From contig OZ024740.1 of assembly GCA_964016885.1 (NCBI GenBank), positions 166,036,001 through 166,100,000 on the forward strand: a DNA stretch of 64,000 nt, written 5' to 3'. The position numbers were made by a program, and so were the translations under genes. Shown here one piece after another: positions 7,360 to 48,503 of the stretch; positions within the stretch are counted from its first letter, which is position 1; each line of letters opens with the position of its first letter. The notes under the pieces were generated by a model. That model searched no databases, had not been told where the DNA came from, and saw only the letters and a list, made by a program, of their open reading frames with translations. This stretch comes from Eledone cirrhosa. Its lineage: Eukaryota.

Positions 7360-7832
7360 TAAAATATGTAGAGCTTATATTTAATTTGTTGGGATACAAC
7401 AAGCTAAATATTTTTATAACTGATATAAAGCACTCAACAAATTATTGGAGTAAATATACAATATATTAACAAATGGAAACTATATTGATAAAACCATATT
7501 TATTTCATTATCCATATTTCAAGGGCCACCAAAGCAAACGATGGTGCGCTTTCATCAAATAAAATATCATATAGGTTAGTTTTATAAATAAATATTGACA
7601 TACCCTTTAAAAATGCAACCATTCATGTTGGAATATCCTGGATAGACTATCCAGGAGATTCCAACCAGAATGGTTGCATTTTTTAAGGGTATGTCAATAT
7701 TTATTTATAAAACTAACCTATATGATATTTTATTTGATGAAAGCGCACCATCGTTTGCTTTGGTGGCCCTTGAAATATGGATAATGAAATAAATATGGTT
7801 TTATCAATATAGTTTCCATTTGTTAATATATT
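7360..7832. mobile_element. Foldback element (family B), ~186-bp inverted arms each with a hammerhead-like motif, flanked by (TA)n
   Basis: 7460-7645 is the near-perfect reverse complement of 7647-7832. The plus-arm motif reads TATTTTAT-TTGATGA-stem II-GAAA-TATGGA-TA-ATGAAATA (7726-7791); its core C3 is T. Confidence 0.85.
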
Positions 7833-8524
7833 ATATATATATATATATATATATATATATATATATTTATATTTATCTCTCTCCCCGTATATATATATAT
7901 GGAGAGAGAGAGAGAGAGAGAGAGAGAGAGAGAGAGAGAGAGAGAGAGAGAGAGAGAGAGAGAGAGAGAATACATCAAATTTATATAAAGACGCGTGCCG
8001 AAGGTCGATACAAGCTGGTGCAGCCAAAGTTTGTATGTGTTGGAGGTAGGATTAATAGAAGCCGCAGCAGTGTTCGTCAGGATAATTTGTCTCACATCAC
8101 AACACCGGAAAGACGTGTTTAATTGATAGCTTTCAGTCACGAATTCCCACGGAAGATAACAATATGAGATTGGGATGGAGTGCAGCAGATAGAAGCAGGT
8201 AGCGAAATAGACGTTGTGATTGATAGATTATCAGAAAGAAAAAGATAGTTAAAAGAGAGGAGCACATGTGTTTATATATATATATATATATACATATATA
8301 TATATATATATATATATATATACATATATAGTTACATGTATATATATATATATATATATATATATATATATATATATATATATATATATACATGTATATA
8401 TATGTATATATATATATATACATGTATATATATGTATATATATATATAACAAAGGAATTGTGGTAAGGAACCAGATGGACCATAACGCACCAGAGTACTC
8501 AATATTTAGGGTAGTAGAGTGGGA

Positions 8525-8642
8525 AATAGGAAAACGTATGTCACCGACGGCAGAGCTCAAGCCGTTTCGACGGCTATTTCTAGTCCAGAAATAGCCATCA
8601 AAACGGCTTGAGCTCTGCCGTCGGGGTCATACTCTTTCCTAT
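8525..8642. repeat. GC-richer ~56-bp-arm hairpin (foldback) ending in (TA)n
   Basis: CCGACGGCAGAGCTCAAGCCGTTTCGACGGCTATTTCT-AGTCC-AGAAATAGCCATCAAAACGGCTTGAGCTCTGCCGTCGG. Confidence 0.85.
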
Positions 8643-11600
8643 ATATATATATATATATATACACAATTTAAAGATTTAGTATCGAAATGGCATCTACAGG
8701 ACTAGAACTGTTTCATTCGAAGAGAAGCATCATGTATTGAGTACCTTACCACTGTGGTTACCCTCGATTGAACCCGGAATACACATACACTAACACACAC
8801 ACATACACAGATATATGTATGTGTGTGTGTGTGTGTGTATCCAGGGTTCTATATATATATATATATATATAGAAAGAGATAGCGCGAGAGAGAGAGACTG
8901 AGGGTCTCGTGCTAAAAGATAGACCAGAGTAAAAGTAATAAAAAAAAATCCATGTACAACATTATATTAGAAAAGAGAGATGTATGACCAGAGAGTTGTA
9001 ATTTAAAGAATATATGTATGAGGGTGGGATATATTTTAATGTGGGGAAAAGAAAGTAGAAAAGGAGTGGGACAAAAGCAGAACGGATAATTGTATGGGCT
9101 GTATATTAGAATAAAAAGGGAGATAATGTGGAGGAAACTGACAATAGTATATAAATGTGTGTGTGTGTGCGTATATATATTTATATGTGTGTGTGCGTAT
9201 ATATATTTATCTGTGTGTATATATATTTAAATATATTCACATAATACATATATATATATACAAACATACATACAAACATATATATAAATACATACATACA
9301 TACATGCTTAAAAAGAAATTTGTATATTCGGGTATGAAACCCTGAGTAACTATAAAATGAAGCTCAGTATACATTTCCATACATATATAAACTGTAATTC
9401 ATGTATTGAGTCGGCTTTGCTTTCATTTGTACACAAAAATGCTGGCATATATATACATACACAGGTACATATGTTTAGATTGAAATATATGTATGTGTGT
9501 GTGAGTGTGTTTGTCTGTATGAGAGAGAGAGAGTGTGTGTGTGTGTGTGTGTATTATCGTTGAGCGAAATCAATTTCTATCTGTGACGAAAAGAAATAAA
9601 GAAATACATAAGACAAGGTCGGGTTGGAAAATCATGAAGTGTAATGGAAAATTTAACCTCGGGCTCTTTTGTTGTTCAGCTTACATTACCCTTTAATGAG
9701 ATGATTTCTCCCCCTCTCTCTGATAAAAACGTTGCCAATCTTAACCTATATGATCTTTCTTTTCACTCCATTTTCCAATTGCCTCCCATTTCCGTTGTTC
9801 TTGTTCTTGTTCGATGTTCTATCTCTATCACTCCTTTTACCTTTTCTACATATTGTTTTTCCGCTGGTTGCTTTTAACACCTTCACATACATATAAAGTA
9901 CGCATACATTCTACTAAACAGTCTTTAATATTTCTCACCATTATATCTGCTTCAACTTTAACTTCCCTTTCGGTCACTGTATAATCCGTTTCTCCATATA
10001 GCTTGTTTTCACTCCTTCATTTTCTGCTTCTGTTACTCGCTTATATAACTTTCTCCTTTATGATATTGAAGCACTAATAATCAATTATTCGTGTTATATG
10101 GTGGAATATAATCATTGCAATATCTTTTTTCGCTCAATAACTTAATTTATTCCTTCACGTTATACTGGATCTTTAAGCGACACTCTTAGATAGAAAAGGG
10201 CTCTCGTACCGACCACACCACAATGGAGTAATTACCGAACTATTATTGAAAGAAGTGTGTATATCCTCGTGCTGTAAGATTAATCAGTAGATCTGCGTAA
10301 TGTACAGATACGTACATGTGTACGTGTGTAATCATATAGACGATGCTTTTCTTTTGCTTCAGGCACTGTATCATTGTCCTTGCCAGAGCATGTGATATAG
10401 TGGTTTGAATAAAAGGATCCTAAATATATTGGTAAGATTTCCTGTGGATCGTATTGATCAGACAAACAATGAATAAATTCAATAATTCCAGATTGTCATT
10501 ATTCACAGATCACTTTTTGTCTATCTGTTGAATTTCAAACAGTTGGAATCTTATACATATGATTCAATGATATTTGTTTTATATTATTGACGTCCTTGAC
10601 TGGAAGAATGGTATGATTATTCGAGATTAGCCAGCTTAATATGTACGTTGAATTATTTTAGGAATGGGCGTAGAGCATTATAGGATATCAATCAATAAAA
10701 AGCATTGGGGAAAATACTTTGGAAAGAAATCTCCCATATAAGAGGTTGATAAATCAAGTCACGGATTTGAAATATTGGCTTAAATGGAAATACTTTCAAA
10801 CTGAATTGGAAATTTCAAAACTTACCTGGTGGAGATAATCACTTTTTAAAACATATCTACTGCACTTAAAGATTTTTAGCGATTCTCATTCACAGTCCTA
10901 CGAACAACTTTGTACAAAATCAGTCAAATTTAGACGGACTTAAGATAATCAACATTCCGACATTCTGCCAACAGATTTAAAGTTTGCATTATAGTGTGGA
11001 ACTTCAAAGTTGAGATAATTTTTTTAAAACGAAAAGGAAAAAACAAATTAGAATACCTCATAGAAAATAGCTACATGGTCATGTAATATCTACTTATGTA
11101 TAATCTCTTCAACTTATTTTCAATTATTGTATATCAACCGGGAGAATGAATAATGACTGCATTTTTAATTAATAAAGTGTTGATTCTTCTTTTATAATGG
11201 CATAAATTCACCTTGTTGTAATAAGGTTATAGATTTGCTGTTATTTTATTGAACCTAATCTTTCAATGTATATTCTGTTTGATGAAAGAAATGTCTGCAG
11301 TTTATTGTTATTTTAACCGGATAAAATTACTGTTTTCAATCCATCCTTTTTTTCTCGGTTATATTGTTATTTTTTATTTTAGTTTGTATTTCTATTTTAA
11401 ATTGTTGCTTAAGTAATAAAATTTAACCATTTTGTTGTCAATAATTTTATCGGAAGTTAGAAACATCAAGTGAGGAAGAAAAAAAGTAAAACACGCAGAA
11501 ATAATGTGTGTGAAGAAGTGGGTGAGTGAGAGATAGCGAATGATAGATACAAAGAGGAATTGAGAGAAAGATGTACTGTTAAAAGAGAGAGAGAAGAGTG

Positions 11601-47769: not shown

Positions 47770-48148
47770 TCTTCTTCTTCTTCTTCTTCTTCTCGCAATT
47801 ATTCCTGGAACGGTCATACGAGCAAAGTCCTCAAATATTCCTTCAAGTGGGTTCTGTCAGAAGTAACCGTCTCCAACTGATCCCACTGGATCCCTAAGCG
47901 AGACCAACCAACCAATCTCATGGATGTCATCCAAACATCTTGCTCGGGATCTACCTCTGAGTTTACTTCTGGTTGGTTTTGCCCATTTAAATCTGTCCAG
48001 CCGTTCTTTCCTGAGACATTCTAACCGCATGTGATCTCTCAATTAGGAGAAGGAGTGGCTCTGCCTGGAACGATTCTCTGATCTCCGAGTTACGCACTCT
48101 ACATCGTAACATTATTCTAGCGACCCTTCGGAGGGACCCCATTTCAGC
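47770..48148 (-). mobile_element. 3' fragment of an RTE-like LINE with a possible (GAA)n tail, truncated at a (TA)n/family B insertion
   Basis: AEMGSLRRVARIMLRCRVRNSEIRESF..LLLIERS..VRM..R and RGRSRARCLDDI are typical of the RTE C-terminus. (TTC)n at 47771-47792. Confidence 0.65.
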
Positions 48149-48162
48149 GATATATATATATA

Positions 48163-48503
48163 TATTCAATGATATTAAATAAATGGAAACTATATTTATA
48201 AAACCATATGTATTCTATTATATATATTTCAAGGGTACCAACACATTGGTACGCCCTCATCAGATAAAATACAAAGTTTCTTTTATAAATATTGGCATAA
48301 CTAGAAAAAAATACCTTAACGGTTCAAGTTTTTCCTGGATAGTCCAGGAAAAACTTGAACCGTTAAGGTATTTTTTTCTGGTTATGTCTCTATTTATTTA
48401 ATATCATTGAATATTATATTCCAGAAAACTGTCGAGTGCTTTGAATCAGTTATAAACATTTATATTTGTTGAATTACCAACAAATTAAATATCCCTTTTG
48501 CTT
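48163..48503. mobile_element. Family B element: one intact hammerhead arm, central hairpin, rearranged second arm, flanked by (TA)n
   Basis: Minus motif 48211-48271 reads TATTTTAT CTGATGA GGGCGTACCA ATGTGT TGGTACCCTT GAAA TATATA TA ATAGAATA. Hairpin at ~48295-48388. The inverted TATTTATTTAATATCATTGAA tail follows. Confidence 0.85.

What the first reader, a model, noticed from the sequence alone, without database searches (positions are those of the whole stretch)
7360..48503. Second hammerhead family (B): five TA-embedded copies, mostly foldbacks, with divergent ribozymes and covariation
Seen at 7360, 18741, 31860, 32438 and 48163: consensus TATTTTAT-CTGA(T/G/A)GA-long stem II-GAAA-TATATA-TA-ATAAAATA. 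The variable core position is N7, the one position hammerheads leave free. Copy 32479-32544 shows a compensatory A-U to G-C change in stem I (TATTTTGT/ACGAAATA). Stem III is palindromic TATATA. The left-arm ribozyme is always on minus and the right-arm one on plus, as in the big array. Established: inverted partial repeats with minimal hammerheads mark Penelope-like insertions. Five copies in 64 kb imply a very abundant family.
Basis: partly seen in the sequence, partly recalled or inferred. Interest (0 to 1): 0.75.

Follow-up and report, generated by a model that had tools for sequence, protein, structure and literature searches.

The report
Abundant Hydra-type Penelope retroelement ends
The five hammerhead-bearing inserts are cut-down, mostly head-to-head end pieces of a very abundant Penelope-type jumping-gene family of a known clade, and the fixed places where its copies start and stop suggest that the enzyme likely begins copying at two hairpin-marked sites, one for each target strand.

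Summary
Observation largely confirmed. The five (TA)n-embedded copies are 5'-truncated pseudo-LTR (pLTR) arms of a Hydra-clade Penelope-like retrotransposon. I found its parents in the same genome: pLTR, a 740-aa RT plus GIY-YIG-type ORF, a long 3'UTR, pLTR. A 24-nt anchor occurs 46,391 times (control 0). The hammerhead core is nearly invariant, N7 takes all four bases, and stems I and II covary. Corrections: only five of eight window ribozymes have an intact core; two copies lack a right-arm ribozyme; divergence simply follows from head-to-head joining, which is published. New anatomy: 98 of 101 arms end just before one of two paralogous hairpins about 92 nt apart (published tails are 30-40 bp). 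17 of 17 inverted pairs have one long and one short end, and in at least four neither arm contains the other. About 37% of copies stop at an initiator-like CACTATCC. Inferred mechanism: twin target-primed reverse transcription from two internal sites, with hammerhead-joined (circular or jumped) templates for long copies. Cleavage and expression are untested. The scan reported the twin hairpins before on other DNA of this genome. New family of a known kind.

The parts
7365..7646 (-). Copy 1 left arm: pLTR from CTATCCAG to the long (tail-bearing) end; ribozyme 7501-7566 with C3U; hairpin 1 at 7430-7451
7646..7832 (+). Copy 1 right arm: ACTATCCA to the short end; ribozyme 7726-7791 with the same C3U; 97.8% identical to the left arm
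18745..18872 (-). Copy 2 left arm, short end; ribozyme 18788-18849 (N7=G, intact core)
18873..19099 (+). Copy 2 right arm, long end; ribozyme 18904-18965 (intact core, one stem I mismatch); hairpin 1 at 19016-19040
31866..32134 (-). Copy 3 left arm, long end (+190 from C3); ribozyme 32002-32064 intact; 94% to the pLTR of full-length L033
32133..32309 (+). Copy 3 right arm, starts at TATCCAG, short end (+98); ribozyme 32203-32265 with GACA in place of GAAA
32439..32622 (-). Copy 4, single arm, short end; ribozyme 32479-32544 (N7=A, G-C in stem I); 96.9% to L114, which carries a 583-aa RT+EN frame
48166..48343 (-). Copy 5 left arm from ACTATCCA to the short end; ribozyme 48211-48271 intact
48344..48502 (+). 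Copy 5 right arm, long end; ribozyme removed by an internal deletion near 48395; hairpin 1 at 48418-48439

Best explanation
The five inserts are 5'-truncated pseudo-LTR arms of a Hydra-clade Penelope-like retrotransposon family that sits in (TA)n, and they were likely made by twin target-primed reverse transcription from two hairpin-marked internal start sites. Shown: parent structure (pLTR, 53-nt 5'UTR, about 740-aa ORF, 0.9-1.6 kb 3'UTR, pLTR); two fixed 3' ends (+98 and +190 from C3), each 7-8 nt before a paralogous hairpin (ACTC...GAGT and GCTC...GAGC); one long and one short end per foldback; a sharp 5' stop at CACTATCC. Inferred: (1) a promoter in the upstream pLTR starts RNA at that initiator-like motif. 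(2) The RT-EN protein binds the tail domain, nicks both strands of (TA)n and primes one cDNA from each nick, one at each hairpin. (3) Both cDNAs run towards the RNA 5' end and are joined head to head by microhomology, which gives divergent ribozymes and a tail on one side only. (4) On uncleaved linear RNA they run off at the start site, giving the 170-280 nt arms of this window. (5) Long and more-than-unit copies need the 3'UTR to lie upstream of hairpin 2, which hammerhead cleavage followed by ligation or a template jump would provide. The ribozyme would cut after AUA as a dimer through its self-complementary helix III, probably inefficiently.
For: Parents: L033 with RWR, DKT, YRDD, CNCRIKSNC, CKLC..E..N..CRH; uninterrupted frames of 742-750 aa in L180-L182. 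Fold matches RTs including TERT; the EN part resembles GIY-YIG clusters (a lead only). Ends: 62 of 101 arms end near hairpin 1 (43 at -2), 36 near hairpin 2 (27 at -4/-3), 3 elsewhere; 92 of 96 short or long ends run into TA/TG repeats. Pairs: 17 of 17 are long+short in the position-ordered sample (two of them scored 'mid' by the script are tail-bearing by eye; p about 2e-6 under independence); 10 long+short, 2 short+short, 1 unscored and 0 long+long in 13 further pairs; 3 of 3 scored in the window plus 48163 by eye. Non-nested arms in at least 4 of 17 pairs (L065/L066, L098, L104, L122). 5' stop: 38 and 36 of the first 100 listed copies of two subfamilies break within 9 nt upstream of TATCC, against at most 8 (0-1 clear) of 100 at a control site 58 nt upstream (counted by eye). 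Ribozyme: 95.5% of cells paired, 71 double changes, 0 of 500 shuffles as high; the helix III centre varies only UA/UG, which keeps intermolecular pairing. Template: hairpin 2 lies in the 5'UTR, yet long-ended copies reach into the ORF (L033, L084, L128, L137, L181, L183). None of 30 ORF-start loci has an upstream arm reaching back to the ORF end, and 12 extend past the start motif. The L183 pLTRs are identical for 113 nt before and 145 nt after the cut site. PMC11167929 shows internal initiation at two sites that bound the tail, on both strands, in a Poseidon element.
Against: No RNA data: no RNA holder was listed, so the start site, cleavage and circles are unobserved. The cap-G test was inconclusive (G 12, A 8, T 6 of 26, with at least 4 G explained by microhomology). 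The hairpins and the long-range helix are conserved but nearly invariant, so they show little covariation (2 of 27 pairs). The active hammerhead fold is not the minimum-energy fold of any of the 8 window motifs and the helix III duplex is weak (-3.2 kcal/mol). PMC11167929 found cleavage unnecessary for insertion in vitro. Pair counts are of related sequences and I did not count events on a tree. Stem I and the outer helix are as conserved as the core, and my parse preselected for core matches (17 of 101 arms dropped). Later deletions could mimic non-nested arms. Two pairs scored short+short. Pfam did not recognise RT or GIY-YIG in these proteins, and clade membership rests on motifs, not a tree.
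Confidence: 0.72

Rival explanations
1. Same element, but foldbacks arise by self-priming: one cDNA folds back and copies itself (or an antisense template is used), as proposed for rotifer Penelope in PMC3846280.
For: Many junctions are near-palindromic and the two arms share private changes (7360: C3U in both arms, 97.8% identity). A fold-back copy that stops early would also give one long and one short end.
Against: In at least 4 of 17 pairs, and in L141 and L143, the tail-bearing arm is the one that reaches less far 5', so neither arm can be a copy of the other. Single arms end at both sites, so each site can prime alone.
Confidence: 0.12
2. Same element and twin priming, but the hammerhead is a passenger: long copies come from read-through of true tandem arrays or of a downstream pLTR that needs no hairpin 2, and the 5' pile-up is RT pausing at structure, not an RNA end.
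For: PMC11167929: ribozyme mutants insert normally and no RNA ends were seen at the cut site. A conserved hairpin and a 12-bp outer helix lie just inside the 5' stop. Short arms span the cut site, so their template was uncut or rejoined.
Against: The core stays intact across subfamilies whose 3'UTRs are unrelated, which implies selection. No upstream full unit in 30 loci within 1.5 kb. The stop is confined to 9 nt at a TCACT-like motif, which PMC3846280 names as initiator-like in a rotifer pLTR.
Confidence: 0.11
3. The short copies are a separate non-autonomous element (retrozyme, SINE or MITE-like) with its own masters.
For: Tens of thousands of short copies with preferred 5' and 3' ends; many look like foldback elements.
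Against: 5' ends form a continuum from the cut site back into the ORF. About 62% of copies at the 5' stop continue into the 3'UTR. Arms match the pLTRs of ORF-bearing copies at 94-97%. Inverted arms vary in length, unlike fixed terminal repeats.
Confidence: 0.04
4. Chance hammerhead-like motif in AT-rich repeats, or an assembly artefact.
For: AT-rich sequence; modest folding z-scores in 4 of 5 window arms (-0.3 to -1.9); no Rfam hit listed.
Against: Control patterns give 0 against 5,240 and 46,391; covariation; arms differ by 2-6%, so they are not read duplications.
Confidence: 0.01

Closest known systems
Hydra clade of C-terminal EN+ Penelope-like elements (Craig et al. 2021, PMC8557442), including Hydra-1_Obim
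   Same: Single ORF with RW[KR], DKT, CxCX5C linker, CxxC and CxH around E and N, no CCHH; hammerhead in the pLTR; (TA)n targets; inverted 5'-truncated copies. Block-by-block resemblance to the supplement's Hydra alignment by eye.
   Different: Unit of 3.4-4.3 kb with a 0.9-1.6 kb 3'UTR (Hydra 'generally <3 kb'); different ribozyme and protein from Hydra-1_Obim; at least 46,391 arms, where the paper found few families outside cnidarians; tail about 92 nt.
Poseidon_Ac of Anolis, internal RT initiation (Frangieh et al. 2024, PMC11167929)
   Same: Two start sites bounding a tail, downstream of the hammerhead at the pLTR-ORF junction; AT-rich targets; both strands primed.
   Different: Here the sites are about 92 nt apart, lie upstream of the ATG, each sits before a paralogous hairpin, often with 4-5 nt TA microhomology, and the two are used one per foldback. 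That paper saw no strand difference in vitro.
PLE hammerheads with small palindromic helix III (Cervera and de la Pena 2014, PMC4209133)
   Same: Type I core, long helix II, self-complementary helix III implying dimer cleavage; pairs on opposite strands 100-700 bp apart; proposed circular template.
   Different: Longer helix I with an outer helix, conserved C.C mismatch in helix II, and no extra base between A9 and stem II in most copies.
Adineta vaga Penelope elements (Arkhipova et al. 2013, PMC3846280)
   Same: Inverted pLTR with optional tail on one side, TCACT initiator-like motif, long variable spacer before the 3' pLTR.
   Different: Tail 31 bp there; self-priming was proposed, which the non-nested arms here do not fit.
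Non-LTR retrozymes (bioRxiv 10.64898/2026.07.22.740005; PMC7229834, listing only)
   Same: Short, non-coding, type I hammerhead, PLE-related.
   Different: Retrozymes are tandem units; these arms are not tandem and grade continuously into ORF-bearing copies.

Membership tests
Penelope-like element (EN+) | Single ORF with RT followed by a C-terminal GIY-YIG endonuclease | tested here: met
   Frames of 742-750 aa; RT fold by Foldseek, top E 1e-7; homolog P0026 hits RVT_1 at E 9e-6, below the curated cutoff; EN by motif and Atlas lead. No structural match for the EN was obtained.
Penelope-like element (EN+) | pLTRs in partial tandem, inverted 5'-truncated copy, tail on one end | tested here: met
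   L033, L183, L185; 17 of 17 pairs
Hydra clade | RWK-like motif, DKT in place of DKG | tested here: met
   RWR and DKT in L033 and L180-L185, except RWC in L184; definition from PMC8557442 section 11
Hydra clade | CxCX5C linker; CxxC and CxH flanking E and N; no CCHH | tested here: met
   CNCRIKSNC / CNCRDRSKC, CKLC or CDLC..E..N..CRH
Hydra clade | Insertion into (TA)n and hammerhead in the pLTR | tested here: met
   92 of 96 classed ends; 10 of 12 EN loci with the ribozyme
Hydra clade | Branches with Hydra families in an RT phylogeny | not tested
   Named reference proteins were only seen in the paper's supplement; no tree was built
Hydra clade | Generally shorter than 3 kb (a tendency, not a definition) | tested here: not met
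   Units of 3,434, 4,034 and 4,263 nt
Type I hammerhead ribozyme | CUGANGA / GAAA / UH core between three helices, N7 free | tested here: met
   10 deviations in 1,008 core cells over 84 arms; N7 T55/G12/A12/C5; 5 of 8 window motifs intact
Type I hammerhead ribozyme | Covarying stems | tested here: met
   4 pairs with double changes, 95.5% paired; slid controls 32-58%. Relatedness not corrected.
Type I hammerhead ribozyme | Self-cleavage | not testable with these tools
   needs an assay; no RNA run listed
Non-LTR retrozyme | Tandem head-to-tail short units without ORF | tested here: not met
   1 same-strand plus pair and 3 minus pairs among 25 neighbours within 5 kb, none a short tandem unit; continuum into the ORF

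The most novel reading that the evidence does not exclude
This family records the whole Penelope integration cycle in DNA. A dimeric RT-endonuclease reads a duplicated hairpin signal and starts one cDNA at each hairpin from opposite strands of (TA)n (obligate twin priming). Uncut linear RNA yields short foldbacks that stop at the transcription start, and hammerhead-made circles are the required template for full-length and more-than-unit copies. That would assign a function to the PLE hammerhead and explain the one-sided tail.
Probability: 0.35. Interest if true: 0.68.

Novelty: new member of a known kind. Interest (0 to 1): 0.42.

Why it matters
The thing itself is an ordinary product of a known clade. 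Its value is as material. How Penelope-like elements (the closest mobile kin of telomerase) integrate, why they leave inverted ends with a one-sided tail, and what their hammerhead does are open questions (PMC8557442, PMC11167929). With tens of thousands of copies, many subfamilies and a tail three times the usual length, this family separates the two start sites clearly and makes twin priming, the hairpin signal and the circular-template idea testable.

Tried and rejected
Rfam scan: no hammerhead family among the 150 of 156 rows shown. Pfam: no RT or GIY-YIG hit for the element's own frames. PDB sequence search: retron RT at E 9e-4 with the profile; only galectin noise for the EN. Single-sequence EN fold failed (pLDDT 40.5); the wide structural search never ran, so the EN fold is unconfirmed. 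Cap-G signature at the 5' stop: inconclusive. A pile-up of 5' ends at the cut site: 8 of 101 arms map to +41..+60 and 3 of 30 upstream arms to +51..+66, but the anchor starts near +60, one case is an internal deletion and TA microhomology confounds it; not claimed. My first 5'-end script failed because the pLTR is partly self-complementary and was redone; there about 4 of the 31 ends at -66..-100 are artefacts of missing subfamily references. My early tail estimate of 108 nt came from a reference with a deletion and was corrected to about 92 nt. I first concluded no intact ORF existed (max 561 aa among 150 EN hits); one search overturned this. Sequence look-up in earlier findings gave nothing.
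Full report
1. Observation. All five sites exist and lie in or beside (TA)n. A descriptor scan found seven hammerhead motifs; the eighth, 32479-32544(-), was read from the sequence and recovered by a profile search. The layout is stem I, CUGANGA, stem II, GAAA, UAUAUA, UA, stem I'. Five of the eight have an intact core. Both arms of 7360 carry C3U and a helix III that no longer self-pairs, and 32203 has GACA. Four insertions are head-to-head foldbacks (arm identity 93-98%), but the right arm of 48163 lost its ribozyme by deletion; 32438 is a single arm. 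The stem I G-C change is real. Rfam listed no hammerhead among 150 of 156 rows shown.

2. Abundance. The window is G000:C1:166036001-166100000 in a 3.0-Gb genome. A tight ribozyme pattern has 5,240 exact matches and a 24-nt anchor just downstream of the ribozyme has 46,391; reversed controls give 0. With 17 pairs among 101 arms this is at least about 38,000 insertions (inference). The window has 6 exact anchors, about six times the genome mean. Twenty random 10-kb stretches held 2 insertions and 0 exact anchors.

3. The parent. Walking upstream from non-foldback copies led to an ORF end and to L033: pLTR 3304-3885, 53-nt 5'UTR, ATG 3939, ORF to 6159 with two frameshifts, about 0.9 kb AT-rich 3'UTR, second pLTR, (TA)n; unit 3,434 nt. 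Uninterrupted frames of 742-750 aa exist (L180-L182; 3 of the 150 rows). Ten of 12 endonuclease loci carry the ribozyme 0.7-1.4 kb downstream in sense. Window copy 31860 is 94-96% identical to the L033 pLTR and 32438 is 96.9% to L114. A model of the L114 frame (pLDDT 70.7) matches RTs, TERT among them. The C-terminal part resembles GIY-YIG clusters in the Atlas (a lead); Pfam and PDB sequence searches did not confirm it. The motifs RWR, DKT, CxCX5C, CxxC..E..N..CxH and no CCHH are those given for the Hydra clade (PMC8557442 section 11), and the protein follows the supplement's Hydra alignment by eye. It is not Hydra-1_Obim, whose ribozyme and protein differ. Database homologs are 27-44% identical and mostly unnamed; two are from Argonauta.

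4. The ribozyme. I took the first 100 anchor matches on C1, position-ordered and so not chosen by subfamily; one more came with a flank, giving 101 arms. 84 could be parsed; 17 were truncated, deleted or shifted and were dropped. Twelve core positions deviate in 10 of 1,008 cells; N7 is T55, G12, A12, C5. The 12 nt upstream average 67% modal base. The parse favoured core matches, and stem I is as conserved as the core. On 67 distinct sequences the structure pairs in 95.5% of cells, with double changes at one stem I and three stem II pairs; no shuffle of 500 reached that percentage, the cell count or the covariation score, though the number of pairs with double changes was matched by 334. Relatedness is not corrected. 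The helix III centre varies only between UA and UG, which keeps an intermolecular duplex, as expected for dimer cleavage (PMC4209133). An outer 12-bp helix extends stem I. The active fold is not the minimum-energy fold.

5. The ends. 3' ends fall at two places, +98 and +190 from C3. After reading earlier finding e1-8673755 I tested its twin-hairpin idea. Upstream pLTRs that run on into the 5'UTR show a second hairpin, GCTC...GAGC, paralogous to ACTC...GAGT in the tail, 91-99 nt apart, each 7-8 nt behind one end. 62 of 101 arms end near hairpin 1, 36 near hairpin 2, 3 elsewhere. A 10-bp long-range helix closes the second site and forms only at the pLTR-5'UTR junction (z -3.9 for L033; pairs conserved but nearly invariant). 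All 17 head-to-head pairs have one long and one short end (two 'mid' calls are tail-bearing by eye); 13 further pairs give 10 long+short, 2 short+short, 1 unscored. In at least four pairs the tail-bearing arm reaches less far 5' than its partner. 5' ends pile up at a CACT(A/G)(T/C)C motif 80-90 nt before the core, upstream of which subfamilies are unrelated. In genome-wide listings 38 and 36 of the first 100 copies of two subfamilies break within 9 nt there, against at most 8 at a control site (counted by eye). A cap-derived G was not shown.

6. Mechanism. Shown: anatomy, ends, pair rule, covariation. Inferred: transcription from the initiator-like motif; two cDNAs primed from opposite strands of (TA)n, one at each hairpin; head-to-head joining; run-off at the RNA 5' end for short arms. 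Hairpin 2 exists only before the ATG, yet long-ended copies reach into the ORF. No upstream arm in 30 ORF-start loci reaches back to the ORF end, while 12 pass the start motif, and the young L183 has identical pLTRs across the cut site. A template in which the 3'UTR precedes hairpin 2 is therefore needed if hairpin 2 is required; hammerhead cleavage and ligation, or a template jump, would supply it. Self-priming (PMC3846280) does not give non-nested arms. A passenger ribozyme remains possible (PMC11167929). I put the element's identity at about 0.95 and the full mechanism at about 0.7.

7. What is known. Papers seen: PMC8557442 (passages, sections 10 and 11, parts of the supplement); PMC11167929 (parts 1-2 of 4); PMC4209133 (parts 1-2 of 4); PMC3846280 and PMC13282606 (passages); bioRxiv 10.64898/2026.07.22.740005 (part 1 of 5); PMC7229834 (listing only). 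Inverted arms, one-sided tails, opposite-strand ribozyme pairs, internal initiation and the circle hypothesis are all in print. I found no description of this family, of a 92-nt tail, of the paired hairpins or of the pair rule in searches. That library lacks most subscription papers and repeat databases, and I did not open the supplements of the O. vulgaris repeat paper or the bioRxiv paper, where the family may be listed. Earlier scan reports reached the Hydra and twin-hairpin reading on other DNA of this genome; they are not independent support.

8. Verdict. A new, very abundant family of a known clade. Interest 0.42, for the testable mechanism more than for the element.

Noticed in passing
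window 32963-39810: The 311-bp hammerhead array (separate finding) shows the same one-sided rule: its left arm runs about 30 nt further than its right arm before (TA)n, the canonical tail length. Its sequence is unrelated to family B by eye.
   Followed up: partly
window 25390-26075: A tRNA-Ser(GGA)-like repeat (ARAGORN 25446-25518, minus; Rfam tRNA also 25871-25941, plus) in a nested inverted and partial-tandem layout; PLE-like architecture around a tRNA-derived unit.
   Followed up: no
window 2831-3686 (-) and 31027-31820 (+): Broken frames that look by eye like a DNA transposase and like a non-LTR restriction-type endonuclease region, the latter next to copy 31860 (labels recalled, not searched).
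   Followed up: no
L031:209-2400: A long sense copy joined head to head to an inverted arm of another subfamily (79% identity), so two arms can come from different parents or insertions.
   Followed up: partly
L084 and L033:8020-8492: L084 holds another RT-like element (555- and 284-aa frames, minus); L033 has a second, divergent Hydra-like endonuclease downstream.
   Followed up: no
PMC8557442 supplement, Hydra-2_Amil 3' end: The coral element ends with a GCTC...GAGCAC hairpin like hairpin 2 here (read by eye), suggesting the signal is old in the clade.
   Followed up: no
L058, L079, L069, L094, L125: Recurrent microhomology deletions inside the ribozyme; L058 and L079 lose the same GAAA-containing stretch.
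   Followed up: no
L182: An uninterrupted 741-aa frame whose endonuclease has His where L033 and L114 have a conserved Arg, and whose upstream pLTR is missing.
   Followed up: no
window 41340-41540: Assembly gap (run of N) inside a roughly 5-kb TA-rich tract at about 39810-45360.
   Followed up: no
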